Shown here: piece after piece, positions 44,426-59,472 of the stretch
Layout: every line of letters starts with the position of its first letter
Position numbering within the stretch: position 1 is the first letter of the stretch
From: Burkholderiales bacterium
GTDB lineage: Bacteria > Pseudomonadota > Gammaproteobacteria > Burkholderiales > Sulfuriferulaceae
Assembly: GCA_038217005.1 (NCBI GenBank)
Contig: JBBQPT010000009.1
Location: 839 to 64,838 of the forward strand
DNA length: 64,000 bases
Reading direction: 5' to 3'
The notes under the pieces: generated by a model
Databases searched by the model: none
What the model was told of the DNA's origin: nothing
Seen by the model: the letters and a program-made list of their open reading frames with translations, nothing else
Made by a program: the position numbers and the translations under genes

Positions 44426-44452
44426 TATTTATATTTACGAGGCAAAACTATA

Positions 44453-45100
44453 GTGCTTACTCAACTCCACTTGGCTGAACAGGTTAAATTTCTGGTTGGG
44501 CTGTTCGCCATCCTGAATCCATTAGGCGCAATTCCGATCTTTTTGAGTATGGCGGGTGACCGGCGACCGCAGGAAATGCACCGCACTGCATTAAAAACGG
44601 CGATTGCTGTGACCGTAATTCTGGTGTTTTCGGTATGGGCGGGTGATGGTGTGCTGGGATTCTTTGGCATAGGTATACCTGCGTTCAGGATTGCGGGTGG
44701 GTTGTTGGTGCTATTGATCGCCATTTCCATGTTTCACGCCAAGGTCAGTCCCGCACGGCATACCGATGCGGAAGAAATTGAAGCCGAGTCCAAGCTGGAT
44801 ATCGCCGTTGTGCCGTTGGCTATCCCCCTATTGGCAGGGCCGGGTGCGATTAGTCTGGTGATTGTTGATGCGCATCAGGCGGCGAGTTTGCTGGATAAGA
44901 TACTGTTTAGCGTGTCGATTACAGGTATAGGATTGCTGGTGTGGTTGGTATTGCGTTTGGCTGAGCCTATTGGTGAGCGTTTGGGTACGGCGGGATTGAA
45001 TATTGCGACACGGGTGATGGGGTTGATATTGGCGGCGATGGCAGTGCAGTTTATGGTTGATGGCTTGATTGTATTATTACCCGGCCTAGCGGCCAAATGA
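44453..45100 (+). CDS. MarC family membrane protein
   Basis: NPLG.IP.F, GIPAFRIAGG, VPLAIPLLAGPGAI and RVMGLIL motifs; GTG start. Confidence 0.92.
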   Translation: MLTQLHLAEQVKFLVGLFAILNPLGAIPIFLSMAGDRRPQEMHRTALKTAIAVTVILVFSVWAGDGVLGFFGIGIPAFRIAGGLLVLLIAISMFHAKVSPARHTDAEEIEAESKLDIAVVPLAIPLLAGPGAISLVIVDAHQAASLLDKILFSVSITGIGLLVWLVLRLAEPIGERLGTAGLNIATRVMGLILAAMAVQFMVDGLIVLLPGLAAK

Positions 45101-45852
45101 TCAGTTCCGTACACAATCCGCAGTACAAAGCCCTGAAAAAACTGGCTGACTCAACCAGCGAGCGGCGCGAGCAGGGGCAAACTTTACTTGATGGTGAGCA
45201 TTTGCTCTTAAGCTACCTCGCTACCGGACAGGTGCCACGTCTGGTTATCGTTGCCGAGTCGGCGGAGCAGCATCCGCTGTTGGCACGACTTGCCAACGTG
45301 CCTGTGTTGGCATTGTCGCAAGGACTGTTTAATACGTTGTCACCCGTAAAGACGCCAACGGGTTTGCTGTTGCTGGTTGATATTCCGCCTCGTGTTGTTC
45401 CTGCTGATGCCAGGTTTATCGTGTTGTTGGAAGCCATACAGGATCCAGGTAATCTCGGTGCAATGTTGCGTAGTTCGGCGGCGGCGGGGGTGGATGCGGT
45501 GTACTTGTCGGCGGGCTGCGCTGATGCCTGGTCACCCAAGGTCTTGCGTGGGGGCATGGGTGCACATTTTGCGACGCAGATTGTCGAGCACGCCAATTTG
45601 ATCACTGTTGCCCAACAATTCGACGGTCTCATTTGTGCAACTGCGCTTGATGCGCCAAACAGCTTATTCCAGACTGATCTGACGGGCAAAGTCGGTTTTG
45701 CCATGGGTAACGAAGGGGCGGGTCTATCCGCACAACTACGTGCCGCAACCAACTGTGCCATCAGCATACCCATGCCCGGGCAAGTTGAATCGCTCAACGC
45801 GGCGGCGGCGCTGGCGGTGTGTGTGTTTGAGCGGGTGCGTCAGTTGGGGTGA
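45097..45852 (+). CDS. TrmH/SpoU family RNA 2'-O-methyltransferase
   Basis: ISS..NP, IQDPGNLGAMLRS, GNEGAG and IPMPGQVESLNAA. Confidence 0.92.
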   Translation: MISSVHNPQYKALKKLADSTSERREQGQTLLDGEHLLLSYLATGQVPRLVIVAESAEQHPLLARLANVPVLALSQGLFNTLSPVKTPTGLLLLVDIPPRVVPADARFIVLLEAIQDPGNLGAMLRSSAAAGVDAVYLSAGCADAWSPKVLRGGMGAHFATQIVEHANLITVAQQFDGLICATALDAPNSLFQTDLTGKVGFAMGNEGAGLSAQLRAATNCAISIPMPGQVESLNAAAALAVCVFERVRQLG

Positions 45853-46630
45853 GGTTGTATTGGGTGAGTTCCACACGTAGTTGTCGCACTTCTGCGTGCA
45901 ATGCGCGGATGTCATGGTGCAGTTCTTCACGCAACTTTTTCTCATCTGCACCGATAAATATTGCCGCGATACTCGCCGTGGTGATAGATAGAATTGCCAG
46001 TCCAAATAATACATTGATGACAGCAAATACCCTTGAAGCATCGGTAGTGGGAACCAGATCGCCATAGCCTACTGTTGCGCCTGTGGTGAATGCCAGCCAT
46101 AAACCTTGGGTGTAAGTGTGTACCGTTGGTTCCAACCAATAAAATCCCGCACCCGAAAGCATGAATAATATCATTGCCCAGCCCAATAAATACGGCATGG
46201 CGCCAGGTGTGAACAGGTTGCGCATTGCGCCTAATACGCGCGCCAGCATGAGTGATACATAAGCTAGGCGAAACAGGCGCGCCAGTGGCAGCCATTCGCC
46301 ATCTACGCCAGTGAGGCTGATTGCGGCCCCGAGGATGATGAGTAAATTGAGCCAGTTGTGCAGCAGGTACAGTGACTTTTGTTCAACCAGATATAACATC
46401 CACACTAATTCTGAAATAAAGGCAACCAGGATGATTAAATCCAGTACTTGACCTAAATGCCTGAACCAGCCAGATTGTTGCGTGATTTCCAGATAAAACG
46501 CGGGCAGGGTGAGCAGGGCGACAATTAACATCAAGCGATGCAGGCGTTGCTCCCAAAGGTAAGCAATGGCTTTGTCATGTTTTGGTACGCCACCAATGCC
46601 GATGTAATGGCGGTAGTTGTCTATGCTCAT
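45794..46630 (-). CDS. Potassium channel (6-TM, Kv-like) with C-terminal coiled coil
   Basis: Selectivity filter TVGYGD; S4-like LARLFRLA; C-terminal heptad repeats. Confidence 0.88.
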   Translation of the reverse strand: MSIDNYRHYIGIGGVPKHDKAIAYLWEQRLHRLMLIVALLTLPAFYLEITQQSGWFRHLGQVLDLIILVAFISELVWMLYLVEQKSLYLLHNWLNLLIILGAAISLTGVDGEWLPLARLFRLAYVSLMLARVLGAMRNLFTPGAMPYLLGWAMILFMLSGAGFYWLEPTVHTYTQGLWLAFTTGATVGYGDLVPTTDASRVFAVINVLFGLAILSITTASIAAIFIGADEKKLREELHHDIRALHAEVRQLRVELTQYNLTPTDAPAQTHTPPAPPPR

Positions 46631-46640
46631 ATGGGCGCGC

Positions 46641-48068
46641 CTAATCAGGATAGTCGGGGGTGATGCTGTCAGCGTAGTCGTATAGATCTGATAATATCAC
46701 TTCACCACGCTCACCGGCAGTTTCAGCCAGTTGGTCTATGGTTTCGCTAAACTGGGTAAGCGTGCGGGCGCCGTGCTTGCCGTTGAATAATCTATCGGCG
46801 CAATGGCTGTGCCAGCGACTGGTTTCTTCTGTATCCAGTGTCGCGGGATAATTGCGTGCGCGGTAACGGAACAGCAGTTCATCCAGCCGCGCATCGCTAA
46901 AACTGGGGCGAGACTGTGACAGTGCTTCAGGGTCGAGACCGCGTAAGCGCGCGAGTAAGCGGCGATCGTCATTGCTAATAAAACCATTGTATAAATCTTC
47001 ATCGACATCAAGCGTGTCGGCATATTCGCGTTGATAAACTTCCCGCCAGGTCGCGCTCATGTCGCCTAGTTGCTGGCATGCAGCAGCGTTGGTCATGACC
47101 TTATCCATATCTAACCCCCAATGTTGGGCCTGTTCTGCAGTTAGCGTTTTGAGGGGGCTGACAACAGGAGATTTATTGATGTGTATGGTTTTGATCGGTA
47201 GCCGCGTGACGCCCGCAGGCAGCGCGTCAGTTTTGCTGAACATGCGCGTGCGCAGCGTGGCGACATCCAGTGTGGCGAGCTCGCTGGGGTCATATGCGCA
47301 ATCCCAGACGATGATTTCATTTTTATTGGTCGGGTGCGTGGCGAGCGGATAAGCCACCATGATGCAGCCCTGTTCTACCGGTATCATCCCCGAAATATGC
47401 ACAAACGGGCGCGGCGCATGCAGGCTAATTTGCTCGGTGACCGCATCTTTTTTATGCAGCTTGAAACAGAAATCAAACAGCTTGGGTTGGTTGGCGCGGA
47501 TAAGCCTGGCGAGGGCGATGGTCGCGCGCACGTCCGAGAGCGCGTCGTGGGCTGCGGTATGGCTGATGTTATTGGCTGCGGTGAGCAGTTCGAGACGGAA
47601 ACTTACGCGCCCATCGGCCCCCGTCGGCCAGTTGATGCCGTCAGGTCGCAGTGCATAAGCAGCGCGTACCACATCGAGGATGTCCCAGCGGCCGCAGCCG
47701 TTTTGCCATTCCCGCGCGTAAGGGTCGATAAGATTGCGCCAAAACATGAAACGCGTTACTTCATCGTCAAAACGTATGGTGTTGTAGCCCACGCCTATGG
47801 TATTGGTTTGCGCCAGTGCGGCCTCGATTGTGGCGGCAAATGCGGCTTCGCTGATGCCTTGCGTCAGGCAGGTTTGCGGGGTGATGCCAGTGATTAAACA
47901 GGACTGCGGATCGGGTAAATAGTCTGGCGCAGGCTGGCAATAACACATGATAGGTTCGCCGATTTCATTCAAATCCGCATCGGTGCGGATAGCGGCAAAT
48001 TGCGCGGGGCGGTCACTGCGGGTATTCACGCCAAAGGTTTCGTAATCGTGCCAGAGAAAAGTGTGCAT
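46641..48068 (-). CDS. sbcB: Exodeoxyribonuclease I
   Basis: WHDYETFG, DRPAQFAAIRTD, GYNTIRFDDE and AHDALSDVRATI. Confidence 0.96.
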   Translation of the reverse strand: MHTFLWHDYETFGVNTRSDRPAQFAAIRTDADLNEIGEPIMCYCQPAPDYLPDPQSCLITGITPQTCLTQGISEAAFAATIEAALAQTNTIGVGYNTIRFDDEVTRFMFWRNLIDPYAREWQNGCGRWDILDVVRAAYALRPDGINWPTGADGRVSFRLELLTAANNISHTAAHDALSDVRATIALARLIRANQPKLFDFCFKLHKKDAVTEQISLHAPRPFVHISGMIPVEQGCIMVAYPLATHPTNKNEIIVWDCAYDPSELATLDVATLRTRMFSKTDALPAGVTRLPIKTIHINKSPVVSPLKTLTAEQAQHWGLDMDKVMTNAAACQQLGDMSATWREVYQREYADTLDVDEDLYNGFISNDDRRLLARLRGLDPEALSQSRPSFSDARLDELLFRYRARNYPATLDTEETSRWHSHCADRLFNGKHGARTLTQFSETIDQLAETAGERGEVILSDLYDYADSITPDYPD

Positions 48069-48174
48069 AGTTGTTTTTGAATAAGGTTATCCCCGAATTA
48101 TTGCGGTTTCGCGCGGGAATGGCAATGCGCAAAATCAGTTACAATGCGAGATACCACAAATCGAGTCAAATATC

Positions 48175-49017
48175 ATGCTGAGTTACCGTCACGCCTTCCA
48201 TGCTGGCAACCATGCCGACGTGCTAAAACATTTCGTCCAGTTGCAAATTTTGCAATATTTCAATCAGAAAGATAAACCCTACTGGGCAATTGATACCCAT
48301 GCCGGTGCAGGTTTGTATGCGCTGGATAGCGGCTATGCGACGCAGAATGCCGAGTTTCAAAGTGGTATCGCCAAGCTCATCGCGCGCAATGATATGCCTG
48401 CAACCTTGGCTGAGTACGTGGATTTGGTTCGCGGCTTAAACCCAGATGGTGGGTTGAAAATCTATCCAGGCTCGCCATGGATAGCGATGCAAGTGTTGCG
48501 TAGTCAGGATCAATTGAAACTATTTGAACTGCATCCGACCGATAGCCAGTTGCTGCATGAGAATTTCGCCAGCGCGGGGCGACAAGTAAAGATCCAGGCG
48601 ATAGATGGATTTACCGGCTTAAAGGCGGTGCTCCCGCCTGCGCCGCGCCGCGGCTTTGTGCTCATCGATCCGCCGTATGAGGAAAAGCAGGATTACCAGC
48701 GCGTTCCCGCTGCGCTCAAGGATGCGCTTAAACGTTTTGAAACGGGTACTTACGCGGTCTGGTATCCGCAACTGCAGCGCCATGAGTCGCAACATTTTGT
48801 TGAGGCGCTCAAGCGCGTCCCCGCCAAATCATGGCTCAACGTCAGCCTTGCCGTGCAAACCCCGTCTGTGGACGGCTTTGGTATGCACGGTAGCGGCATG
48901 TTTATCATCAATCCACCGTGGACGTTGCATGCCACGCTCAAAACCGTGATGCCGTATCTGGTAAGTGTGTTGGGGCAGGATAAGGGTGCTGGGTTTGTGT
49001 TGGAGACGATGGGATGA
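48175..49017 (+). CDS. rlmJ: 23S rRNA m6A2030 methyltransferase
   Basis: MLSYRHAFHAGNHADVLKH, DTHAGAG and IDPPYE. Confidence 0.96.
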   Translation: MLSYRHAFHAGNHADVLKHFVQLQILQYFNQKDKPYWAIDTHAGAGLYALDSGYATQNAEFQSGIAKLIARNDMPATLAEYVDLVRGLNPDGGLKIYPGSPWIAMQVLRSQDQLKLFELHPTDSQLLHENFASAGRQVKIQAIDGFTGLKAVLPPAPRRGFVLIDPPYEEKQDYQRVPAALKDALKRFETGTYAVWYPQLQRHESQHFVEALKRVPAKSWLNVSLAVQTPSVDGFGMHGSGMFIINPPWTLHATLKTVMPYLVSVLGQDKGAGFVLETMG

Positions 49018-49021
49018 TGGG

Positions 49022-51115
49022 TCAGGCTCGCATCGTGCTGTGTTTTAGTTGCTGCTCAAACTGATCCACAGGCGTTGGTTTCCCAAATAGATAACCTTGG
49101 AAGCTCAGGCAGTGATGTTCGCAGAGAAAACTCCTCTGTTCCTCAGTTTCCACCCCTTCCGCAATAACTTCCATGCCTAGGTTGTTTGCCATTGCGATAA
49201 TGGTTTGCACGATGATCGCACTATCACAGTCGTGCGTGATATCGTGAATAAAGCTTTGGTCAATTTTTAGTTGATCTAGCGGTAATTTTTTCAGGCTGGA
49301 TAACGAAGAATGGCCAGTGCCAAAGTCATCCATTGAGAATTTGACGCCCAGTCGCTTGAGTGCCTGCATTTTTCCGACTATCTCATTGATATTACCCAAT
49401 ACCATGCTTTCAGTTAACTCAAGTTTGATGCGAGTTGGATTGATGCCTGTTTTGTGTAAAACGTCAGTGACTTGTTCGACAAAATCAGGGTGTTGGAATT
49501 GGCGGGGGCTTACGTTGACAGCAAGATGCAGGGACGCTTTATCGGCATCCGTTTCCCATACTTTTAATTGGTGGCAGGCCGTTTCCAGTACCCATAGACC
49601 TATCGGAATAATAAGCCCGGTTTCTTCTGCTATAGGTATGAAATCCGCTGGATTGATGATGCCATTGATAGGATGCTGCCAACGCAGCAATACTTCGGCG
49701 CCTTCAATCTTGCCCATGTTGTTTACCTGAGCCTGGTAATAAAGCTGCAGCTGATGTTGACTCAATGCCTGACTCAGATGCATTTCCAGTGAAGAGCGTT
49801 GTTCAATTGCAGCTTGCATAGCGGGATCAAAAAACTGCACTGTGTTACGCCCAGATTTTTTGGCTGAATACATGGCGATATCCGCTCGCTTCATCAGTTC
49901 ATCAATTGATTTGATGTGATGAGTCAGCATGGTGACACCTATGCTTGGTGTGCTCAGGCGATTGTTATTGGCAAGCTGATATGGTTGGCTGAGGCTAGCC
50001 ATTATTTTTGTAGTAAAAGCCTCAACTTGGTGAGCCGCTTCTTGTGGAAACTCACTCAAACCTTCCATGATGATGACAAATTCGTCCCCACCTACACGGG
50101 CAACGGTATCGCCTGCACGCACGCAGTGCGTCAGTCGTTGGCCAACCAGTTGCAGTAGCAGATCCCCAATGTTGTGTCCCAAGGTATCATTAATGTTTTT
50201 GAAGTTATCCAGATCGATGAACAGTAACGCCCCATGTTGGCCGCTGTGGCTACAGGTTGTTAAAGCGTGCTGAAGTCTCTCGGTGAAAAAGCGTCGGTTG
50301 GGCAGTTGGGTCAGTGAGTCATGAAGTGCCATTTCATGGATACGTTGCCGTTGCGAATTGAGTTCGGAAATATCGTGTCCTACCGCCAGCACCGTAGTCA
50401 TTACGCCGTTCAAGTCATATTCCGCAGTCAGTCGGATATGGCTACAGAATTCTTGTTGGTTCTTGCCTGTCCAATGCAATTCAAACTCGATATTCTGCCC
50501 TGTGGCAAATACCATACGTATTTTTTCTTCATATCGCGCAGCATTTTCCCCGCCAGGATGTTCAGTAGGTGTTTTGCCCAACAATGCCTCTTTACCCCCT
50601 TCTGTTATCGCACAGAAGGCGGGATTGGCATAGAGTCGCCGACAATTCTGGTCATAACGCGAGATCGTATTGGGGGAGTTTTCAACCAGGGTACGCCATT
50701 CCAGTTCTCGGGTTGCGAGTAATTCCTCTTTGTTTTTTCTGTCATTGATATTGAAAGTTACACCAATAAAGCGCTGACCTTGTCCATGGCAATCCATGCT
50801 TCTGCCATAGTTTGCATACCATATCCATGCGCCATCTTTACTGCGTAATCTGAACTCGCACCGATATTGTGAAGTGGCGCCAGCCAGATATTCGCTCACC
50901 GTGGTTTTGATGGTTGCAATGTCACTGGGGTGGACGATGGTGAACATGTCGTCGACTAATGAAGCTGTCTCTGCTTCGGTGTAGCCAAGTTCTGCGTAGG
51001 TCTTAATTGCCTTACGAGTAACCTCCCCAGTCACCAGGTTGTTTTCCCAAAGGTCGAGACCGGCCGCCTCTAAAGCAAGCGCCAAACGATCCTTGTCGAT
51101 GTCATGTTCTATCAT
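49022..51115 (-). CDS. PAS-PAS-GGDEF-EAL diguanylate cyclase/phosphodiesterase
   Basis: Two PAS/PAC domains; HDSLTQLPNRR, DLDNFK.INDTLGH and intact GGDEF; EVLLRW, ELTES, DDFGTG and AEGVET. Confidence 0.93.
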   Translation of the reverse strand: MIEHDIDKDRLALALEAAGLDLWENNLVTGEVTRKAIKTYAELGYTEAETASLVDDMFTIVHPSDIATIKTTVSEYLAGATSQYRCEFRLRSKDGAWIWYANYGRSMDCHGQGQRFIGVTFNINDRKNKEELLATRELEWRTLVENSPNTISRYDQNCRRLYANPAFCAITEGGKEALLGKTPTEHPGGENAARYEEKIRMVFATGQNIEFELHWTGKNQQEFCSHIRLTAEYDLNGVMTTVLAVGHDISELNSQRQRIHEMALHDSLTQLPNRRFFTERLQHALTTCSHSGQHGALLFIDLDNFKNINDTLGHNIGDLLLQLVGQRLTHCVRAGDTVARVGGDEFVIIMEGLSEFPQEAAHQVEAFTTKIMASLSQPYQLANNNRLSTPSIGVTMLTHHIKSIDELMKRADIAMYSAKKSGRNTVQFFDPAMQAAIEQRSSLEMHLSQALSQHQLQLYYQAQVNNMGKIEGAEVLLRWQHPINGIINPADFIPIAEETGLIIPIGLWVLETACHQLKVWETDADKASLHLAVNVSPRQFQHPDFVEQVTDVLHKTGINPTRIKLELTESMVLGNINEIVGKMQALKRLGVKFSMDDFGTGHSSLSSLKKLPLDQLKIDQSFIHDITHDCDSAIIVQTIIAMANNLGMEVIAEGVETEEQRSFLCEHHCLSFQGYLFGKPTPVDQFEQQLKHSTMRA

Positions 51116-51120
51116 GTCAT

Positions 51121-52305
51121 TCAGGCGGGGTAAGGTAGGGCGCCAGCATAGCCAATGTTACGGAGTAGCGTTGCAAATGATGTGACGACACCAGGTGTGT
51201 TATACAGTTCTGCTGCTGCGTTGATCTTGATGATACTCACGGTTTTTCCTGTACTGAGGCCAGTGTTTGCATCAAAATAAACGGCTAAGTCATCCGAAGC
51301 ATTAGAAAAACCCAGGCCAGTACTTTCTGAATAGTAGCAAATTGAGTCTGGCGCGATAATGCTGGGCGTATTACTCAGGCTGGTATACATAATCAGATTT
51401 TCATTCAGATTGTATATGGTGTAGGTTGCAGTGCTATTGGCCGGGTCGGGCGTATTGTCGAGGCGGATGATGCCAGTGTCCAGTGATGCATTGGTAGTCG
51501 ATTGAGTCACTGAGGTGATATAAAAGTTGGTGACTATGGCGGTTGCCGAGCGCCCGGTAATGTCAGTAATTTTCGCTGCTACTTCCTTGGTGATTGGTGG
51601 TGTTGTGGCGGTTAACAGAAATTTGCCGAGAGCCCAGGCCTGGGTCAAGGTTCCGGGAATATAGCTTCCAGTTAAAGCATAGTTGTTAGTTGCGTTAGAT
51701 GGCCAAAGCGTAATGCCTGAAAAATTACCGAATGCAGCAACGACTCCGCCAGCCAATGTTTCGGTTTGGGCTGCTGTGGCAGCATTTAAAATGGCGGATT
51801 GAATCGCAGTATGCTCATTAGCATCATTAGCCAGCACACATGGGCTCACTGCCAGTGTGGTGCTGCCGCTATAAGTTGTTTGTGGTAGTTCGGGTACTGC
51901 GCGTCCAGCACCATCCCCATTAACGACCCACATGCCATTGCTGGATATGGCGGCTGCGATGAGCGGCACTATCGAATTAATGGGCCCGATTTCTACTGGA
52001 ATGACACAGCCCAGGGTAAAACCAGTCGAAGACTGATAGGTGTTAGTCGTGTTTACGATAGAATAAGTTACATCCGTCAGTGTCAGCGAGTCCGCAGCAT
52101 CGGGCGAACCCATCAGCGCCAACACGGCACAATTGGTTTTGCCGTCGTAATCCTGCACCAGCACGGTGTCGTGCCAGCCACTATCGGCCAGTTCTTCGAT
52201 GACATTAACCGCATCGTTGTAGCTGCCACCGCCCCCGCTTGCTAATATCGCAGCGCCTGTAGCAATGTATTGGAAGTCAGTAATACCATACTCATAAACG
52301 CTCAT
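51121..52305 (-). CDS. DUF917 family protein (thiohydantoin desulfurase-like fold), atypical Thr/Ser/Asn-rich
   Basis: GAAILASGGGG, MGSP, PVEIGPINS and GDGAGRAVPEL match the DUF917 N-terminal motifs; AAAGGG RBS. Confidence 0.75.
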   Translation of the reverse strand: MSVYEYGITDFQYIATGAAILASGGGGSYNDAVNVIEELADSGWHDTVLVQDYDGKTNCAVLALMGSPDAADSLTLTDVTYSIVNTTNTYQSSTGFTLGCVIPVEIGPINSIVPLIAAAISSNGMWVVNGDGAGRAVPELPQTTYSGSTTLAVSPCVLANDANEHTAIQSAILNAATAAQTETLAGGVVAAFGNFSGITLWPSNATNNYALTGSYIPGTLTQAWALGKFLLTATTPPITKEVAAKITDITGRSATAIVTNFYITSVTQSTTNASLDTGIIRLDNTPDPANSTATYTIYNLNENLIMYTSLSNTPSIIAPDSICYYSESTGLGFSNASDDLAVYFDANTGLSTGKTVSIIKINAAAELYNTPGVVTSFATLLRNIGYAGALPYPA

Positions 52306-52380
52306 GATTTCCCTTTATATAGTGTGATTTTTCTACAAAATCATCTGGCAGGTACGTGCGATAAGTGTAAGGTAAAAGTG

Positions 52381-52653
52381 TTATGGGGCGCAAACGTATG
52401 TTGAGTAATTGCTATGCTTACTGCATTCAAAATTAAACGTTGGGTTTGCCATTATTAGGATGTCGGCATTGCCGATTAGCAGAGCAAGCTTTGCATTGCC
52501 GGTTTGTGTGCGGCAAAACGCATCTGCCAGCGCATCAATGTTTTCCTCGACCAGGTGTTGGTAGGAAACCAGCGACTCGACATCATTTTGGGAGAATGAG
52601 AATAAAGCCTTGTGCTGCTCCACCTGGAATTCAGTAATACGCATTTGTTCCAT
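52381..52653 (-). pseudogene. Truncated globin-coupled sensor (protoglobin) relic
   Basis: EQMRITEFQVEQHKALFSF...EENIDAL..F...QT...ALLIGNADIL resembles the N-terminus of globin-coupled diguanylate cyclases. Similarity stops near 52456, before the proximal His. Confidence 0.7.
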
Positions 52654-52953
52654 TCGTGTGACCTCGTTTTATATGTTTTTATAATTATTTTATGGGCATT
52701 CTGGTGCGTAGTGATGCTCTGTATCGCCCGTGTGATTCTAGGCTTAATGTTTATGGGTAGCAATAACCGTGAGGGGGAGTTTGTGGTTTGGGGTGAGCAA
52801 TAAGGTGTCAGTGCTCTTTGTGACGGATAAAGGCAGTCTTTTTGTGGTGAAAGCGCTGTTGTATTGCGTACTCTCATCAGCTTTTGTACTGTGCTGATGA
52901 AAATAGGGTGGTTAAATCAGGCCGTATTTTATTGCTTAATAATGTAACTTGTT

Positions 52954-53667
52954 TTAAACCTTATCTACGTCTGCGCCAAACACATCCATAAACGCTGTGT
53001 AATAAGTGATAAACGCTATCGGTATCATCACGATGAGTCCGATGAGCGGAAGCGTGGCGAGGAAGAAGAGCACAAACAGGCTAAAGCCATAAACCAGAAA
53101 TGCGCCGGCATTGGACAAAATGGCGATACTGCTGGCTTTCATGGCGTTGATGGGAGTGAGGTTGCCGAAGACGATGAGGGCAGGGGCGAACCAGTAGGTT
53201 GAGATCAGGAGTAATTGCAGGGTGACGCTGATGAGTATGGGCATGCGGTAATTGGCAAGCAGCGCCAGGGTTTCGGCGTTGGAATGGCCTGCGGTCAGGT
53301 CGCGAATTAAGCCTTCGCCACCGAGTTGTCCGACTATCAGTCCTATGATGAGCATGCCAGTGAGGTAGATGCCGCCTACGGTGATTAGCTGTGTGCCGTG
53401 GGTTTTGAAGGCTGCGAACAGGTGGCTGATTTCGAGTTTTTCACCTTGTTGCTGTGCATGGCACCCCATCAATAAGCCAGCGATGAGCGCGGGGTAAATG
53501 AGGGTAAATATGAGTCCACCCATTACGGGTACTGACATGAGCACTGCGCCGATAAGTATGACGGCGAGGCTTAACACTATCCACAGCAGGTAGCTTTTCT
53601 TGAATATGCCAAATGCAGATTTAATCCATTGCCAGCCGTGGCTGGCAGGTACGGTACGTGGGGTCAT
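52954..53667 (-). CDS. BPSS1780 family membrane protein
   Basis: PRTVPASHGWQWI start, hydrophobic core, WFAPAL; ATGA-type overlap with thrB. Confidence 0.82.
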   Translation of the reverse strand: MTPRTVPASHGWQWIKSAFGIFKKSYLLWIVLSLAVILIGAVLMSVPVMGGLIFTLIYPALIAGLLMGCHAQQQGEKLEISHLFAAFKTHGTQLITVGGIYLTGMLIIGLIVGQLGGEGLIRDLTAGHSNAETLALLANYRMPILISVTLQLLLISTYWFAPALIVFGNLTPINAMKASSIAILSNAGAFLVYGFSLFVLFFLATLPLIGLIVMIPIAFITYYTAFMDVFGADVDKV

Positions 53668-54629
53668 GATGGTTCCTGGTTAACCCACATCCGCTGTAAT
53701 GCGGACTGGGCTTGTATGCGGTTGCGCAAGATGCGTTCGAAATGGGATGGATCTTTGGCGTGGGTCATTTCACCGGCGCGCGGGAAGTGCATGTCATACA
53801 GGCGAGATACCCAGAAGCGCAATGCGGCGGCGCGCAGGGTGATGGGCCATGCGCCGCGTTCAATAGCGGTGAACGGGCGTACGCTGTGGTATGCCTGAAG
53901 GAAAGCGCGGGTGGCCACTTCGTCCAATTCACCTGTTGCGGTCACACACCAGTCGTTGGCGGTGATGGCGATGTCGTACAGCCAGGCATCGTTGCAGGCG
54001 AAATAGAAATCGATGACGCCTGAAACGTTGTCACCTTCGAACAGTACGTTGTCGCGGAATAAGTCTGCATGGATGACGCCGCGGGGCAAATCTTGCAAGC
54101 GGTGCAGCGCCTGGAATTTAATTTCGTCTTGCAATAGCTGTGCGGCATCGGTATCCAAAAATGGCAGCAGTTGCGGGCTGGTGGCTTTCCACCAAGTGGT
54201 GCTGCGTTCGTTATCGCGCTGCATGGAGAAGTTTTTGCCCGCGACATGAATTTGCGCCAGTGTTGCACCCATGGCAGCGCATTGCGCGACGGTCGGTTCA
54301 GTGAGCGATGCGCCAGTCAGGCGAGTGACTACGCTGGCGGGTTTACCGTTAAGCGCGCCGAGCAGTTCGCCTTGCCGATCGGACATCGGTAGTGGGCAGG
54401 GTACGCCCAGGCTGGCCAAATGATGCATGAGATGCAAAAAATAAGGGAGTTCAGCAGCAGTCAGGTTTTCAAATAGGGTGAGTACATATTTGCCCTGATT
54501 GGTGCTGAGAAAGTAGTTGGTGTTTTCTATCCCTGACGCAATACCGCGTAATTCGGTGAGCTGGCCTATGGAATAGTTTTCTAGCCAAGCACTGGCTTGG
54601 TCTTCGCTGACGGTGGTAAATACAGACAT
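53664..54629 (-). CDS. thrB: Homoserine kinase type II
   Basis: MSVFT, GIENTNY, LTLFE, GVIHADLFRDN and IDFYFA. Confidence 0.95.
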   Translation of the reverse strand: MSVFTTVSEDQASAWLENYSIGQLTELRGIASGIENTNYFLSTNQGKYVLTLFENLTAAELPYFLHLMHHLASLGVPCPLPMSDRQGELLGALNGKPASVVTRLTGASLTEPTVAQCAAMGATLAQIHVAGKNFSMQRDNERSTTWWKATSPQLLPFLDTDAAQLLQDEIKFQALHRLQDLPRGVIHADLFRDNVLFEGDNVSGVIDFYFACNDAWLYDIAITANDWCVTATGELDEVATRAFLQAYHSVRPFTAIERGAWPITLRAAALRFWVSRLYDMHFPRAGEMTHAKDPSHFERILRNRIQAQSALQRMWVNQEPS

Positions 54630-54685
54630 GGGTGTGAAGTGGTCGTGTTAGCCTGACCTTATCATCAGGCTGGATTCAAATTAAA

Positions 54686-55015
54686 TTACCACTGATGGAT
54701 AATCCACATCGGTGGGCGTACGCCAGAGTCCAGACTGTCTTGGCGGCTAAATTGACCATCACCACGCTCGTCGACGAGGTAATAAGGTTTGCCGGTTTTT
54801 GGCGTGACTTTGATCATATAAAGTTTACCGTTGTGGCGGTATTCTTCATATTTGTCATTACCTTTTTGTTTGATGGTAATTTGTGGTTCCAGTGTGTCGT
54901 TGCTAACGACTGGTGGCGGGGGCGCATCGGGTAAGGCTTCTAAATTAGCAGGGCGATCAGCCGCTCCGCTGATGAGTGGTAGTCCTAGCAAAGCTGCAGC
55001 GATGATTTTACGCAT
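54686..55015 (-). CDS. DUF2782 domain exported protein
   Basis: Signal peptide; EPQITI...EEYR.NGKLYMIKVTP..GKPYYLVD. Confidence 0.88.
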   Translation of the reverse strand: MRKIIAAALLGLPLISGAADRPANLEALPDAPPPPVVSNDTLEPQITIKQKGNDKYEEYRHNGKLYMIKVTPKTGKPYYLVDERGDGQFSRQDSLDSGVRPPMWIIHQW

Positions 55016-55079
55016 GATGAACCTCGTAATGGTGTATTAGCAGGATTTTAGCAGAGCCAGCGCCTGGCTGACGGCTTGC

Positions 55080-55808
55080 TTATAAATAAAGTTGAATTTC
55101 ACGGTCGCGAGCAGTAGGCTCAAAGCCTTGTTTTTCGTAATGGTCAAATATTGCACTTACAACATCTTCGGGGTTGTCGATAATCTGGATTAAATTCAAG
55201 TCGTCAGCGTTAACCATGCCTTCGGCAACCAGGCTGGTTTTGAACCAGTCGATCAAGCCTGTCCAGAAACTGCTTTGCACCAGAATAATGGGGATTTTGC
55301 GGGTTTTGCCAGTTTGTACCAGTGTCAGCGCTTCCATCAGTTCATCCATGGTGCCGAATCCGCCAGGCATGACAACATAAGCTGAAGCGAATTTTACAAA
55401 CATGACTTTACGCACGAAAAAATGTGCAAAGGTTTGTGAAATATCTTGGTAAGGGTTGTCGTGCTGCTCGTGTGGCAGCTGGATGTTTAAGCCGACACTG
55501 GGTGATGTACCGTGAAATGCACCTTTGTTGGCGGCTTCCATGATGCCAGGGCCACCGCCGGAAATGACGGAAAATCCCGCATCTGATAGCTGGCGTGCAA
55601 TGCGTTCAGTGAGCGCGTAATAGGGGTGGTCAATCGGCGTGCGGGCACTGCCAAAGATACTGACGGCGGGGTGGATTTCATTTAAACGCTCAGTGGCAGA
55701 GACAAACTCTGACATAATCTCGAACATGCGCCATGATTCGCGGGCGTTATAACTAGCGTGTGCGGCGAGTTCCGGGTCGGCAAGATGAGGTAGTTTTTCT
55801 TTATGCAT
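55080..55808 (-). CDS. LOG family (TIGR00730) nucleotide phosphoribohydrolase
   Basis: SIFGSAR, SGGGPGIMEA, FFVRK and PGGFGTMDE motifs. Confidence 0.92.
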   Translation of the reverse strand: MHKEKLPHLADPELAAHASYNARESWRMFEIMSEFVSATERLNEIHPAVSIFGSARTPIDHPYYALTERIARQLSDAGFSVISGGGPGIMEAANKGAFHGTSPSVGLNIQLPHEQHDNPYQDISQTFAHFFVRKVMFVKFASAYVVMPGGFGTMDELMEALTLVQTGKTRKIPIILVQSSFWTGLIDWFKTSLVAEGMVNADDLNLIQIIDNPEDVVSAIFDHYEKQGFEPTARDREIQLYL

Positions 55809-55818
55809 GAGGTATGTT

Positions 55819-58536
55819 GTGGCTAAAAAATTGTTGTTGGTCGATGGTTCGTCTTACTTATATCGTGCATTTCATGCGTTGCCAGACATGCGCAACCCTG
55901 CGGGTGAGCCTACCAATGCGATTTATGGCGTACTCAATATGTTACGTCGCTTGCAGAAAGATTATGCCACCGATTATAGCGCCTGTGTGTTTGACGCTAA
56001 AGGTAAAACTTTCCGTGATGACTGGTATCCGGACTATAAAGCCCATCGCCCATCCATGCCTGCTGATTTAGCCAGTCAAATTGAGCCATTACATGCGGCG
56101 ATCAAGGCGATGGGCTGGCCATTATTGATGGTTGATGGTGTCGAGGCAGATGATGTGATTGGTACGTTGGCTTATCAAGCCAGCCAGCAAGGTATAGCAA
56201 GCATTATTTCTACCGGTGACAAGGACATGGCACAGCTGGTTGATGCGCATGTGAGTTTGATTAATACCATGAGCAATGAGTCCATGGACGAAGCGGGCGT
56301 GCTGGCGAAATTTGGCGTGCCACCGAATCGTATTGTGGATTATTTGAGCCTGGTCGGTGATGCAGTCGATAACGTGCCTGGCGTGGAGAAAGTGGGTCCG
56401 AAAACAGCGGTGAAGTGGCTGGCTCAGTTTGATACGCTGGAAGAGATTATCGCTCACGCGGATGAAGTAAAAGGGGCGGTTGGCGAAAATTTGCGCCGAG
56501 CTCTGGGTTGGCTGCCAATGGCGCGCAAGTTGATTACTATCCGCACCGATGTGCCATTAGATAGCGCTGTTGCGGATTTGGTGATGCGACCTGCAGACAA
56601 GCCTGCACTGCTTGAGTTGTATGGACGCTATTACTTCAGAACCTGGCTGCGTGAGGTGCAGGATAGCGATGTTGTTACGGCACCTGTTGAAGTCGGACAA
56701 GCGAGTCTGGATTTGGCCCCACCAGCTGCAGCAAAAATCTATGAAACGATATTAAGCCTGAATCAACTGGATGCATGGATAAGTAGCCTGATGCAGGCCG
56801 AATTAGTGAGTTTTGATACCGAAACCACTAGCCTGGATCCAATGCAAGCGCGTCTGGTGGGGATGTCATTTGCGATTACGCCTTATCATGCGGCGTATTT
56901 GCCATTAGGTCATCGTGGCCCTGATGCACCCGTGCAATTGCCTTTGGATGTGGTGCTGGCACGATTGCGGCCTTGGCTGGAGGACGCGGATCGGGCCAAA
57001 GTTGGGCAGAATCTGAAATACGATATGCATGTATTAGCCAATCATGGTATCCGCCTGGCAGGCGTGGTGCATGACACCATGTTGCAGGCTTATATTCTGG
57101 AGTCACACTTGCCGCGCAATATGGACAGTCTGGCGCAGCGACATTTGGGTGAGGCGACTATCAGTTATGAATCGGTGACAGGCAAGGGCGTGTCGCAAAT
57201 TGGCTTTGATCAGGTTGAGCTCAAGCTGGCTGCGCAATATGCGGCAGAGGATGCGGATATTACGCTGCGTCTGCACCAGAATTTATATCCGCGTGTACAC
57301 AGTGTGTCCAAGCTGGATTACGTGTATCGCCAAATCGAAATGCCGTTATTGCCGATATTATGGCAAATTGAGCGCAATGGGGTGTTGTTGGATAGCGGGC
57401 TGCTGGATCAGCAAAGCCATGAGCTGGGGCAGGCCATGCTGGCGATGGAACAGCAGGCTTATGAATTGGCTGGGCAGCCGTTTAATTTAAACTCACCCAA
57501 ACAGATACAGGGCATCTTGTTTGATCAGTTGAAATTGCCGGTGATCAAAAAAACGCCAGGTGGGGTGCCGTCAACGGATGAAAATGTGTTGTCACAACTG
57601 GCAGCTGATTATCCTTTGCCGAAAATTTTGCTGGAATATCGTAGCCTGGCAAAGTTGAAATCGACTTATACCGATAAGCTGCCGCGCATGGTCAATACGG
57701 CAACTGGGCGCGTGCATACCAGCTATTCACAGGCGGTGGCGGTGACTGGGCGGTTATCCAGCGTAGAGCCGAATCTGCAAAATATTCCTGTTAAAACAGC
57801 CGAAGGGCGGCGCGTGCGTGAGGCGTTTATTGCCGCACCGGGTTGTGTGCTGGTGTCGGCAGATTATTCGCAAATAGAGTTGCGCATCATGGCGCATTTG
57901 TCGGGTGATGCGAGCTTGGTTAAAGCATTTATGGAAGGTGCCGATATTCATAGCGCGACTGCTGCGGAGATTTTTGGTGTGACGTTAGCGGAGGTCAGTT
58001 ATGAGCAACGGCGCGTTGCCAAAACTATCAACTTCGGACTGATTTATGGCATGTCGGCGTTTGGCCTGGCGAGCCAGTTGGGCGTGGAACGTGCGGCTGC
58101 GCAGTCCTATATCGATCGCTATTTCGCCCGCTATCCTGGCGTGGCAGTCTATATGCAGCGTACTCGGGCAACTGCACATGAGTTCGGTTATGTGGAAACG
58201 GTATTCGGACGGCGCTTATGGTTGCCGGAAATTCGGAGTAGTAATAAGCATCGTCGTGATGGCGCAGAGCGTGCTGCGATTAACGCGCCTATGCAAGGCA
58301 CTGCAGCGGATTTGATTAAACTGGCCATGATAGCCGTGGCAGGATGGCTGGTGCGTGAGCAGATGCAAACTCGCATTATTATGCAAGTTCACGATGAACT
58401 GGTATTGGAAGTTCCACAGGCTGAGTTGAGCTCGGTACAAGCGAATTTATCTGATTTGATGTGCCATGTTGTGCAGTTGATTGTGCCCTTGGAAGTAGGC
58501 ATGGGAGTGGGTAAGAATTGGGAAGCTGCGCATTAA
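55819..58536 (+). CDS. polA: DNA polymerase I
   Basis: LLLVDGSSYLYRAFHA, FDTETT, GRLSS.EPNLQNIP, ADYSQIELR and QVHDEL. Start placed at GTG 55819 behind a GAGGT RBS. Confidence 0.98.
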   Translation: MAKKLLLVDGSSYLYRAFHALPDMRNPAGEPTNAIYGVLNMLRRLQKDYATDYSACVFDAKGKTFRDDWYPDYKAHRPSMPADLASQIEPLHAAIKAMGWPLLMVDGVEADDVIGTLAYQASQQGIASIISTGDKDMAQLVDAHVSLINTMSNESMDEAGVLAKFGVPPNRIVDYLSLVGDAVDNVPGVEKVGPKTAVKWLAQFDTLEEIIAHADEVKGAVGENLRRALGWLPMARKLITIRTDVPLDSAVADLVMRPADKPALLELYGRYYFRTWLREVQDSDVVTAPVEVGQASLDLAPPAAAKIYETILSLNQLDAWISSLMQAELVSFDTETTSLDPMQARLVGMSFAITPYHAAYLPLGHRGPDAPVQLPLDVVLARLRPWLEDADRAKVGQNLKYDMHVLANHGIRLAGVVHDTMLQAYILESHLPRNMDSLAQRHLGEATISYESVTGKGVSQIGFDQVELKLAAQYAAEDADITLRLHQNLYPRVHSVSKLDYVYRQIEMPLLPILWQIERNGVLLDSGLLDQQSHELGQAMLAMEQQAYELAGQPFNLNSPKQIQGILFDQLKLPVIKKTPGGVPSTDENVLSQLAADYPLPKILLEYRSLAKLKSTYTDKLPRMVNTATGRVHTSYSQAVAVTGRLSSVEPNLQNIPVKTAEGRRVREAFIAAPGCVLVSADYSQIELRIMAHLSGDASLVKAFMEGADIHSATAAEIFGVTLAEVSYEQRRVAKTINFGLIYGMSAFGLASQLGVERAAAQSYIDRYFARYPGVAVYMQRTRATAHEFGYVETVFGRRLWLPEIRSSNKHRRDGAERAAINAPMQGTAADLIKLAMIAVAGWLVREQMQTRIIMQVHDELVLEVPQAELSSVQANLSDLMCHVVQLIVPLEVGMGVGKNWEAAH

Positions 58537-58592
58537 TTTGTGCAGCAGGTTCGTTTTATACAAAATGTAGTATGTAAATTAAAGGATGGTAT

Positions 58593-59402
58593 ATGCAATT
58601 TAGTAAAGTATTGATATTGGCATTGATGGGGGTGAGTTTAAGTGCATGCCAGACCGTGCGCACGACGCAAGGTGGAATGGTAGGGATAGACAGAACTCAG
58701 ATGATGTCGCCGCTGGTGTCGAGTCAGTCGCTGATGCAACAGGCGACGTTGAGTTATAACGGATTGCTGCAAAAAGAATCCAAACAAGGCACGCTCAATC
58801 CTAATCCGGCACAAACTGCGCGGGTGCGGGCGATAGTCAATCGCTTGATTCCGCAAGTTGCGGTGTTTCGCCCTGATGCAGTGAATTGGAAATGGGAAGT
58901 GAATGTAATTGCTTCGCCGCAGATTAATGCCTGGTGTATGCCAGGTGGAAAAATCGCGATTTATACGGGCATTATCGACAAGTTGAAGTTGAGTGATGCT
59001 GAAATAGCAGCAGTTTTGGGACATGAAATATCCCATGCATTACGTGAGCATGCGCGTGAACAAGCATCTGAACAAAGTTTGATGCAACTAGGGATGTTAG
59101 GCGCGCAGTTGGGCGGGTTGGGGCAGGGTACGGTGAATGCGGCCGGGCAGCTGTATAAAGTCGGCGTGGGCTTGCCACACAGTCGCACCCACGAAATCGA
59201 GGCTGACCGCATGGGTGTGGAATTGGCAGCTCGTGCAGGCTACGATCCGCGCGCAGCAATAGGCTTATGGCAGAAGATGAGTCAGCTGGGTGGGAGTCCG
59301 CCTGAGTTCTTGAGCACGCATCCGAGCTCGCAAACCCGTATTCAGGATTTGGAAGTGTATTCGGCCCGGGTAATGCCGCTGTATCAGGCAGCGCGCAAGT
59401 AA
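58593..59402 (+). CDS. M48 family Zn metallopeptidase lipoprotein (LoiP/Oma1-like)
   Basis: Lipobox LSAC; NAWCMPGGKI, HEISH (HExxH), EADRMG and THPS. Confidence 0.9.
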   Translation: MQFSKVLILALMGVSLSACQTVRTTQGGMVGIDRTQMMSPLVSSQSLMQQATLSYNGLLQKESKQGTLNPNPAQTARVRAIVNRLIPQVAVFRPDAVNWKWEVNVIASPQINAWCMPGGKIAIYTGIIDKLKLSDAEIAAVLGHEISHALREHAREQASEQSLMQLGMLGAQLGGLGQGTVNAAGQLYKVGVGLPHSRTHEIEADRMGVELAARAGYDPRAAIGLWQKMSQLGGSPPEFLSTHPSSQTRIQDLEVYSARVMPLYQAARK

Positions 59403-59407
59403 TTTTT

Positions 59408-59436
59408 TTGACCTGAAGCGGTTTTAGCTTTAGTAT
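59408..59436 (+). promoter_or_regulatory. Sigma70 promoter for ilvIHC
   Basis: TTGACC (59408-13), 17-nt spacer, TAGTAT (59431-36). Confidence 0.7.
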
Positions 59437-59472
59437 TGAATGTTCAACGAATTAAATGGATAGACGACTGCA

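What the first reader, a model, noticed from the sequence alone, without database searches (positions are those of the whole stretch)
51121..52305. Orphan DUF917 enzyme with the composition of an extracellular protein
By hand count it has about 51 Thr (13%) and only about 10 Lys+Arg in 394 aa, with abundant Ser, Asn, Gly and Ala. That profile suits adhesins or secreted enzymes, yet there is no signal peptide. DUF917 genes usually sit with hydantoinases and nucleobase permeases, and characterised members release sulfide from thiohydantoins in ergothioneine breakdown (known). None of those partners is here; it sits among c-di-GMP genes instead. It could be a secreted thione desulfurase or a repurposed ligand-binding protein (inference).
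Basis: partly seen in the sequence, partly recalled or inferred. Interest (0 to 1): 0.64.

Follow-up and report, generated by a model that had tools for sequence, protein, structure and literature searches.

The report
DUF917 partner of c-di-GMP enzyme
This threonine-rich DUF917 gene is not a secreted enzyme but the upstream half of a conserved, apparently undescribed two-gene cassette, always followed by a c-di-GMP signalling enzyme that starts with one dedicated PAS sensor domain, so it is probably a cytoplasmic input to that switch.

Summary
The 394-aa ORF at 51121-52305 (-) has 51 Thr (12.9%) and 10 Lys+Arg, hits both DUF917/S-Me-THD Pfam domains, has no signal peptide, and the ~94%-complete genome has no hydantoinase or ergothioneine-catabolism genes. 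The "extracellular" reading fails. The composition is a family trait: DUF917 in general is acidic and Lys/Arg-poor, this subfamily more so, and Thr% rises as GC falls. Neither this protein nor its partner has any export signal. The real finding is the context. In all 24 intact subfamily loci examined (Sulfuriferula, Ferrovum, Propionivibrio, Rhodoferax, Acidovorax, Halothiobacillus, MAGs) the gene is followed, at -23 to +37 nt on the same strand, by a gene whose product begins with one dedicated PAS_3 domain. The output behind that domain varies (GGDEF, GGDEF-EAL, extra PAS). DUF917 and this PAS domain co-diverge (r=0.88). No other neighbour is conserved. Four independent DUF917 remnants sit upstream of intact partners, and no intact DUF917 lacks the partner. 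All family-invariant residues are kept and dN/dS is 0.10. Best reading: a cytoplasmic, small-molecule-binding or -converting accessory input to a c-di-GMP enzyme. The ligand and the mode of coupling are unknown.

The parts
51121..52305 (-). DUF917 / S-Me-THD-like gene (394 aa), upstream gene of the cassette
   Evidence: ORF; Pfam PF06032+PF20906; 2o3i full-length match; all family-invariant residues kept: GGGG24-27, G66, E105, G107, R135, D276, N301, E302, P319, N335; dN/dS 0.099 against the nearest relative.
51116..51120 (-). 5-nt spacer between the DUF917 stop (TGA) and the partner's ATG; probable translational coupling
   Evidence: Sequence read directly. The equivalent spacing is -23 to +37 nt in the 16 genome-contig loci that have downstream DNA. 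No minus-strand terminator-like site lies between the two genes.
50711..51115 (-). Dedicated N-terminal PAS_3 domain ('PAS-N', residues 1-135) of the partner protein; the part that is conserved together with DUF917
   Evidence: PAS_3 hit. Class-wide scores are bimodal, 136-299 bits in 5 genomes against <=68 bits elsewhere. It is 59-66% identical across 17 of the 18 other loci compared (46% in the most divergent, L021), while the GGDEF domain falls to 32-37% between the short- and long-partner classes; distance correlation with DUF917 r=0.88, Mantel p=0.0005.
49022..51115 (-). Partner gene: PAS-PAS-GGDEF-EAL protein (697 aa), predicted c-di-GMP synthase/phosphodiesterase
   Evidence: Pfam EAL 243 bits, GGDEF 172 bits, PAS_3, PAS_9. 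Motifs GGDEF, I-site RAGD, EVLLRW, ELTE and DDFGTG are all present. No TM segment.
52306..52953 (-). Upstream spacer (probable promoter region of the cassette), containing a relic of a globin-coupled sensor gene at 52381-52653
   Evidence: Weak truncated Protoglobin hit, E 0.0014, profile positions 3-54 of 158. The nearest relative has the same spacer minus ~170 bp of the relic. One minus-strand promoter-like site lies at 52763-52735, but the site count is no higher than in shuffles.

Best explanation
The gene encodes a soluble, cytoplasmic member of a distinct, monophyletic DUF917 (S-Me-THD-like) subfamily. This subfamily has left the family's usual hydantoinase-type catabolic context. It now works as the upstream half of a bicistronic signalling cassette. 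The downstream half is a c-di-GMP-metabolising enzyme that always begins with one dedicated PAS_3 domain (PAS-N). What follows PAS-N is interchangeable: GGDEF alone, GGDEF-EAL, or extra PAS domains ahead of these. Shown: the ORF, its family membership, retention of all family-invariant residues, purifying selection, absence of export signals, invariable adjacency and co-divergence with PAS-N, and absence of hydantoin/ergothioneine catabolic genes in the genome. Inferred: the two genes are co-transcribed and translationally coupled. Also inferred: the DUF917 protein binds or converts a small cytoplasmic metabolite in its conserved pocket, plausibly a five-membered cyclic (thio)ureide like the wider family's presumed substrates, with the pocket altered at R186G, M203S, G260N, G273A/G274S, Q300L and W307Y. 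It would then pass that information to PAS-N, most likely by direct protein-protein contact, and so tune c-di-GMP synthesis or breakdown. It behaves as an accessory input. The partner survives its loss, but this DUF917 is never found without the partner. The Thr/Ser/Ala/Asn-rich, Lys/Arg-poor make-up is an inherited subfamily trait, pushed to its Thr maximum here by the low GC content and by ordinary Ala/Ser/Thr exchange at variable positions.
For: Family and integrity. Composition is inherited. Cytoplasmic. Cassette: 15 intact genome-contig loci plus the window, G399, G418, G407, G410, G412, Halothiobacillus, Ferrovum and L034 make 24 of 24 intact DUF917 genes with the PAS-N gene immediately downstream on the same strand. 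No other neighbour is conserved. PAS-N scores are bimodal in 401 genomes of the class, and 4 of the 5 strong hits lie beside DUF917 while the fifth lies beside a DUF917 remnant. Co-divergence r=0.88, Mantel p=0.0005, while the output domains are swapped; partner architecture tracks the DUF917 tree. Boundary: the 57%-identical homologue still has the partner. Homologues at 46% and 45% do not, and the 39% homologue lies with Hydantoinase_A plus a second DUF917. Asymmetry: four independent truncated DUF917 copies exist; three of them (an in-frame deletion in G243, an internal deletion in G413, an IS3 insertion in L017) lie directly upstream of intact partners, and the fourth (5'-cut L018) runs off its contig. 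Their PAS-N domains nest next to those of intact pairs. No catabolic partners in the own genome. Partner catalytic motifs are intact.
Against: Direct DUF917-PAS-N contact is untested; the pseudo-complex prediction was abandoned. Co-divergence shows co-inheritance, not interaction. PAS-N is not exclusive to the cassette: three 'solo' proteins with a 51-59% identical N-terminal PAS-N have no DUF917 trace upstream. The ligand is unknown, and the biochemical activity of any DUF917 could not be verified from the accessible literature. The AF2 model is only moderate (pLDDT 73) and is poor over residues 133-201, which hold the most conserved motif.
Confidence: 0.6

Rival explanations
1. Parallel rather than serial function. 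The DUF917 protein is an ordinary metabolic or detoxifying enzyme for some cyclic amide or thio-compound. The PAS-N enzyme independently senses the same compound (or the enzyme's product) as a freely diffusing ligand. The genes are co-inherited because they respond to the same chemical, without any protein-protein contact.
For: All family-invariant, presumably catalytic or ligand-binding residues are kept. The wider family is tied to hydantoin chemistry by Hydantoinase_A neighbours and by a natural fusion to hydantoin racemase. PAS domains commonly bind small ligands (established knowledge). Solo PAS-N proteins exist and partners survive DUF917 loss, so PAS-N can work without DUF917.
Against: No transporter, second pathway enzyme or regulator is conserved with the pair, which is unusual for a catabolic or detoxification function. 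The genome lacks every recognisable up- or downstream pathway enzyme. The very tight spacing and the high co-conservation of exactly the PAS-N domain are more typical of stoichiometric partners.
Confidence: 0.22
2. Cofactor or maturation helper. The DUF917 protein makes or loads a prosthetic group onto PAS-N, by analogy with the chromophore-supplying enzymes encoded beside photoactive yellow protein, rather than sensing anything itself.
For: The link is strictly to one PAS subtype rather than to the output domains. The enzyme-like conserved pocket is intact.
Against: Partners persist intact after DUF917 loss, with unchanged PAS-N conservation. The one conserved Cys of PAS-N (YRCEFRL) is Ser in Propionivibrio. 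No known PAS cofactor chemistry involves this family (own knowledge).
Confidence: 0.08
3. One reading: an exported or surface-exposed thione desulfurase whose Thr-rich, Lys/Arg-poor composition reflects extracellular life.
For: Extreme composition within the window. Non-classical secretion cannot be excluded from sequence alone.
Against: The composition is shared by the whole subfamily and foreshadowed in the family, and it tracks GC. There is no Sec or Tat signal, lipobox, TM segment, RTX repeat or LPXTG motif. The N-terminus is a structural strand of the fold. The gene's stop lies 5 nt before the start of a cytoplasmic partner. No secretion genes are conserved nearby.
Confidence: 0.03
4. The pair is a mobile defence or stress island module, with nucleotide second-messenger signalling triggered by an enzyme-like sensor.
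For: Patchy distribution: 4 of 401 genomes in the class and 6 of 19 in the genus. Different genomic positions within one genus. Mobile-element neighbours in Ferrovum and an IS hit in L017. Repeated decay.
Against: No PADLOC model matches either protein. The GGDEF/EAL outputs are canonical c-di-GMP housekeeping-type domains with an I-site. No effector gene is conserved. Within the genus, DUF917 divergence roughly tracks that of rlmJ, consistent with mostly vertical descent plus loss.
Confidence: 0.03

Closest known systems
DUF917 / S-Me-THD-like family (Pfam PF06032 + PF20906; structure 2o3i, CV_3147 of Chromobacterium violaceum)
   Same: Both domains are present, the alignment is full-length, and the fold is the same (TM 0.72; it is the only PDB hit with E<0.001). 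All strictly conserved residues are kept.
   Different: It forms a separate clade: about 575 bits within the clade, then 325 bits or less, monophyletic at 95/90 support. It has subfamily-specific replacements at otherwise well-conserved positions (R186G, M203S, G260N, G273A/G274S, Q300L, W307Y). It has lost the usual Hydantoinase_A / second-DUF917 / racemase context and gained an obligate PAS-GGDEF neighbour.
Stand-alone sensor proteins encoded beside and controlling c-di-GMP enzymes, e.g. H-NOX with HaCE in Shewanella woodyi / Legionella (own knowledge, not checked in papers here)
   Same: A small soluble sensor-type protein is encoded immediately upstream of a GGDEF or GGDEF-EAL enzyme as a conserved pair. 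The output enzyme can exist without the sensor.
   Different: The sensor has an unrelated, enzyme-like fold (DUF917, not a heme H-NOX). The conserved docking or receiving element is a dedicated N-terminal PAS_3 domain. The ligand is unknown, and regulation by contact is inferred, not shown.
PAS-GGDEF(-EAL) sensor diguanylate cyclases / phosphodiesterases
   Same: The partner is a canonical member: PAS_3, signalling-helix linker, GGDEF/GGEEF, EAL with a full catalytic motif set, and an I-site.
   Different: Its first PAS domain forms a discrete subtype (136-299 bits against 68 or less for generic PAS_3) that co-occurs with DUF917.

Membership tests
DUF917 / S-Me-THD-like (PF06032 + PF20906) | Both Pfam domains above the gathering threshold, in order N then C | tested here: met
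   89.2 and 50.1 bits against a cut-off of 27; residues 9-168 and 179-367.
DUF917 / S-Me-THD-like (PF06032 + PF20906) | Fold of the only solved member (2o3i) | tested here: met
   phmmer E 1.4e-22 over residues 4-389. The AF2 model (pLDDT 73, pTM 0.81) matches 2o3i at TM 0.72, E 3e-16, with no other significant PDB hit.
DUF917 / S-Me-THD-like (PF06032 + PF20906) | Family-wide invariant residues (GGGG loop, G66, E105, G107, R135, D276, N301, E302, P319, N335) | tested here: met
   All are present in the window protein, judged against 121 distant family members.
DUF917 / S-Me-THD-like (PF06032 + PF20906) | (Thio)hydantoin desulfurase / hydantoin-type ring chemistry | not testable with these tools
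   No open paper on the characterised enzyme was found. The only evidence is the family name, Hydantoinase_A neighbours of a distant member and a racemase fusion.
Ergothioneine / hydantoin catabolic gene cluster | Co-occurrence with hydantoinase A/B, thiourocanate hydratase (urocanase-like) and ergothionase (aromatic lyase-like) | tested here: not met
   PF01968, PF02538, PF01175 and PF00221 are all absent from the 94%-complete own genome, while the control genomes scored positive.
Secreted / cell-surface protein | Sec or Tat signal peptide, lipobox, TM anchor, or known C-terminal sorting or secretion repeat | tested here: not met
   No K/R in the first 10 residues; no RR motif, lipobox, GGxGxD or LPXTG. 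The maximum KD19 of 1.68 falls in the conserved core strand carrying E105. Non-classical export cannot be tested here.
Accessory-sensor + c-di-GMP enzyme cassette (H-NOX/HaCE-like logic) | Conserved same-strand adjacency of sensor gene and GGDEF/EAL gene across taxa | tested here: met
   24 of 24 intact loci, spacing -23 to +37 nt, other neighbours not conserved.
Accessory-sensor + c-di-GMP enzyme cassette (H-NOX/HaCE-like logic) | Sensor protein directly modulates enzyme activity on ligand binding | not testable with these tools
   Needs biochemistry. The in-silico pseudo-complex was abandoned.
Catalytically competent GGDEF-EAL enzyme (partner gene) | GG(D/E)EF, I-site RxxD, EAL/EVL, ExTE, DDFGTG motifs | tested here: met
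   GGDEF, RAGD, EVLLRW, ELTE and DDFGTG are present in the window's partner. GGEEF is present in all the short partners.
Known anti-phage defence systems (PADLOC) | Match to any PADLOC model | tested here: not met
   No hit at E<=0.01 for the DUF917 protein or for two partner types.

The most novel reading that the evidence does not exclude
This DUF917 clade is a 'catalytic receptor'. It is an enzyme-derived sensor that recognises, and perhaps turns over, a cyclic (thio)ureide-type metabolite. It would report this through direct contact with a dedicated PAS domain, defining a new input class for c-di-GMP signalling and giving the first physiological role to a DUF917 lineage outside catabolism.
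Probability: 0.3. Interest if true: 0.7.

Novelty: new variant of a known kind. Interest (0 to 1): 0.55.

Why it matters
Most of the many GGDEF/EAL proteins in bacteria have unknown input signals, and DUF917 is a widespread family with almost no experimental characterisation. A strictly conserved DUF917 + dedicated-PAS pairing gives both problems a concrete, testable handle. It names a candidate sensor protein for a defined set of c-di-GMP enzymes, several of them in culturable Acidovorax, Rhodoferax, Propionivibrio and Sulfuriferula strains. It also narrows the ligand search to the chemistry of the DUF917 pocket. Finally, it is a caution that extreme amino-acid composition can be a family trait rather than a sign of where a protein is located.

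Tried and rejected
(1) The primary literature on S-methyl-thiohydantoin desulfurase / ErtC / DUF917 biochemistry. Six searches found only incidental mentions; one preprint states that DUF917 proteins are uncharacterised and presumed hydantoinases. An active-site check against a characterised enzyme was therefore replaced by a family-wide conservation analysis.

(2) NCBIfam gave no hit.

(4) The promoter/terminator scan found no more sites than shuffled sequence.

(5) Pseudo-complex AF2 using natural in-frame TGA read-through of DUF917 into the partner (L015). It was abandoned because MAFFT placed the first 66 residues of all partner-only rows in the DUF917 region. Without those rows only about 6 paired sequences remain, and the tool returns no PAE or coordinates with which to judge an interface.

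(6) Looking for an 'empty site' at rlmJ in congeners lacking the cassette. Synteny there differs too much to be informative.

(7) The idea that the 12 extra Thr relative to the nearest relative reflect a special process was rejected. They come from 5 A>T and 1 V>T in the window lineage and 4 T>A/I/S in the relative, all at variable columns.

(8) Defence-system reading: no PADLOC match.

(9) The PAS-N tree could not resolve whether solo PAS-N proteins are secondary losses or a sister lineage.

Full report
OBSERVATION. The ORF is exactly where stated: 51121-52305, minus strand, 394 aa. The hand counts were right: 51 Thr (12.9%), 6 Lys + 4 Arg, 30 Asp+Glu, pI 4.05. Among the 46 ORFs of at least 200 aa in the window it is both the most Thr-rich and the most Lys/Arg-poor. 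It hits both halves of the DUF917 family, now named S-Me-THD_N (PF06032, 89 bits) and S-Me-THD_C (PF20906, 50 bits). It aligns end to end with the only solved member, 2o3i. An AlphaFold2 model built on 33 subfamily sequences (pLDDT 73, pTM 0.81; residues 133-201 poorly modelled) matches 2o3i at TM 0.72 and matches nothing else in the PDB. The organism's genome (2.48 Mb, 61 contigs, about 94% complete) is a Sulfuriferula, judged from the 90%-identical syntenic locus L002. It contains one DUF917 gene. It has no Hydantoinase_A, Hydantoinase_B, urocanase-type hydratase or aromatic-lyase-type ergothionase, while the control genomes scored positive. So 'orphan with respect to the usual partners' is correct.

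THE COMPOSITION IS INHERITED, NOT A LOCALISATION SIGNAL. An exhaustive search puts the protein in a tight subfamily that collapses into one 50%-identity cluster. Scores then fall from 575 to 325 bits or less. 118 subfamily members average T 8.8%, S 10.4%, K+R 3.0% and pI 4.2. 124 other full-length DUF917 proteins average T 5.8%, S 6.7%, K+R 7.8% and pI 5.2, and a few of them also reach K+R 2-4%. Across 19 loci, Thr% and Asn% fall as locus GC rises (rho -0.69 and -0.72), while K+R is low at every GC. The window copy is the subfamily's Thr maximum. Its 12 extra Thr relative to the nearest relative come from 5 A>T and 1 V>T in its own lineage and 4 T>A/I/S in the relative, all at variable columns. 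There is no Sec or Tat signal, lipobox, TM segment, RTX repeat or LPXTG motif. The N-terminus is acidic and forms the first strand of the fold. The most hydrophobic 19-mer is the conserved core strand carrying E105. The secreted-enzyme reading is therefore not supported.

WHAT IS REALLY THERE: A TWO-GENE CASSETTE. The DUF917 stop codon lies 5 nt before the ATG of a 697-aa PAS-PAS-GGDEF-EAL protein. I clustered all ORFs in 18 related loci from named genomes. Only one neighbour is conserved, and it is the gene immediately downstream on the same strand. In every locus with downstream DNA it starts -23 to +37 nt from the DUF917 stop. Its product always begins with the same ~135-residue PAS_3 domain (M.E.D.NKERLELALEAAGLDLWEN...YRCEFRLR...WYANYG...FIGVTFNID.RK). 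After that the architecture varies:
- GGDEF only, ~340 aa: Rhodoferax, Acidovorax, Halothiobacillus.
- GGDEF-EAL, 590 aa: Propionivibrio.
- PAS-GGDEF-EAL, ~700 aa: the window, Ferrovum.
- PAS-PAS-GGDEF(-EAL), 588-866 aa.
After removing duplicates between tools, I examined 24 intact subfamily genes and all 24 have this partner.

SPECIFICITY TESTS. In an even sample of 401 genomes from the organism's class, the subfamily occurs in 4 genomes, covering 3 of 321 genera. A search of the same sample with PAS-N alone gave a bimodal result: five genomes at 136-299 bits and all others at 68 bits or less. Four of the five strong hits abut the DUF917 gene. The fifth (G243) abuts a DUF917 remnant, a clean in-frame deletion that fuses the first 22 codons to the last ~31. 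Pairwise distances of DUF917 and PAS-N correlate at r=0.88 (Mantel p=0.0005). PAS-N stays 59-66% identical to the window's copy in all but the most divergent locus (L021, 46%), whereas the GGDEF domain drops to 32-37% between architecture classes. So the conserved unit is DUF917 + PAS-N, with output modules exchanged behind it. The DUF917 subfamily is monophyletic (95/90 support), and the short-partner lineages (Halothiobacillus plus Comamonadaceae) group together on the DUF917 tree. The association has a boundary. A 57%-identical homologue still has it. Homologues at 46% and 45% do not. A 39% homologue sits in the classical context of Hydantoinase_A plus a second DUF917 and a MalT-like regulator on a conjugative element. 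A natural DUF917-hydantoin-racemase fusion also exists in the wider family.

ASYMMETRY AND DECAY. I found four independent truncated DUF917 copies:
- G243: the in-frame deletion described above.
- G413: residues 1-45 plus 308-393 remain.
- L017: an IS3-family transposase ends where residue 304 begins.
- L018: truncated at the 5' end.
The first three lie directly upstream of intact partner genes; L018 runs off its contig before the partner could be seen. Their PAS-N domains are nested beside those of intact pairs on short branches, so these are recent losses. Conversely, three 'solo' proteins (G417, G427, G402) carry a 51-59% identical N-terminal PAS-N with no DUF917 trace upstream. They sit on long, unresolved branches. 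So this DUF917 is never without the partner, but the partner can exist without DUF917. That is the behaviour expected of an accessory input, not of a core subunit.

IS THE GENE FUNCTIONAL? Every strictly conserved family residue is kept: the GGGG loop at 24-27, G66, E105, G107, R135, D276, N301, E302, P319 and N335. The subfamily has fixed replacements at otherwise well-conserved positions: R186G, M203S, G260N, G273A/G274S, Q300L and W307Y. Against the nearest relative its dN/dS is 0.099, close to the partner's 0.095 and somewhat higher than the housekeeping neighbours' 0.03-0.06. The partner's GGDEF, I-site, EVL, ELTE and DDFGTG motifs are intact. Both proteins therefore look active.

MECHANISM (INFERRED). 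The most economical model is a cytoplasmic sensor cassette. The DUF917 protein binds or converts a small metabolite in its conserved but re-tuned pocket. It then transmits this to the dedicated PAS-N domain, which controls the c-di-GMP output through its signalling-helix linker. I favour direct contact because of three observations: the near-abutting or overlapping gene spacing, the one-to-one conservation of exactly one PAS subtype, and the absence of any conserved transporter or second enzyme. A diffusible product sensed by PAS-N is the main rival. A cofactor-loading role, a defence role (no PADLOC hit) and export are less likely. Ligand identity, transcription and interaction remain untested here.

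DISTRIBUTION. Within the genus, 6 of 19 genomes carry the intact cassette and one carries a remnant. It lies next to rlmJ only in the window's genome and its closest relative, and elsewhere in the other four. In Ferrovum it is flanked by a TraI fragment, a PhD/PIN pair and an IS1595 transposase. Its presence in Halothiobacillus as well as in several Burkholderiales-type families suggests some horizontal spread. Within the genus, however, DUF917 divergence roughly tracks that of rlmJ, which is compatible with vertical descent plus frequent loss.

COMPARISON AND NOVELTY. As a protein it is a genuine DUF917 member, with all sequence and fold criteria met. It fails the contextual criterion of hydantoin/ergothioneine catabolism, and its chemistry is untestable here. 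As a system it works like the stand-alone-sensor plus c-di-GMP-enzyme pairs exemplified by H-NOX/HaCE (own knowledge), but with an unrelated, enzyme-derived sensor and a dedicated PAS receiver. I found no paper describing this pairing: only six held papers mention DUF917 at all, and none of the four listed concerns c-di-GMP. I rate it a new variant of a known kind, of moderate interest.

Noticed in passing
window 52381-52653 (-): A 90-codon ORF whose first ~60 residues are a weak, truncated Protoglobin match (E 0.0014, profile positions 3-54 of 158). It is a relic of a globin-coupled sensor gene. The nearest relative (L002) shares the same spacer and the relic's ATG but has lost ~170 bp more of it. 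No other DUF917 locus has a globin piece. So the relic belongs to this lineage's insertion site and is not an ancestral part of the downstream PAS-GGDEF-EAL gene.
   Followed up: partly
L020 4709-4861 (G243); L026 4039-4440 (G413): Two independent internal deletions of the DUF917 gene keep its start codon, its last 31-86 codons and the spacing to the intact partner gene. The G243 deletion is demonstrably in frame; the G413 remnant lies in a single 144-aa open frame. This suggests that translation through the upstream ORF's end matters for expression of the partner.
   Followed up: partly
L017 7500-8276: The C-terminal end of an IS3-family (rve-type) transposase abuts DUF917 residue 304. This is an IS-mediated truncation of the DUF917 gene, with an intact PAS-PAS-GGDEF-EAL gene downstream.
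   Followed up: partly
L035 2057-5062 (G417), L036 1901-4969 (G427), L037 4552-6351 (G402): Three long 'solo' proteins (599-1022 aa) start with a PAS-N-like domain 51-59% identical to the cassette's PAS-N but have no DUF917 upstream. Whether they are old losses or a sister lineage is unresolved.
   Followed up: partly
L024 5001-11116: A distant DUF917 (39% identity) lies on what looks like a conjugative element (DUF736, TraF-type peptidase, SLT, DUF3363). It is followed by a MalT/LuxR-type STAND regulator, a Hydantoinase_A gene and a second DUF917, which is the classical family context.
   Followed up: no
protein P0242 (700 aa): A natural fusion of a complete DUF917 to an Asp/Glu/hydantoin racemase domain. 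It independently links the wider family to five-membered cyclic ureide substrates.
   Followed up: no
window 51121-52305, residues 133-201 of the protein: The AlphaFold2 model is very uncertain (pLDDT <50) exactly over the segment that carries the most conserved motif of the family (GDGAGRAVPELPQTTYSG, with invariant R135). This may be a mobile lid or hinge between the two domains.
   Followed up: no
window 43121-60305 vs L002: Against the closest relative, the neighbouring proteins are 94-97% identical but the DUF917 protein is only 89.6%. It has the highest dS (0.55) and dN (0.055) of the nine genes compared, although dN/dS remains low.
   Followed up: partly
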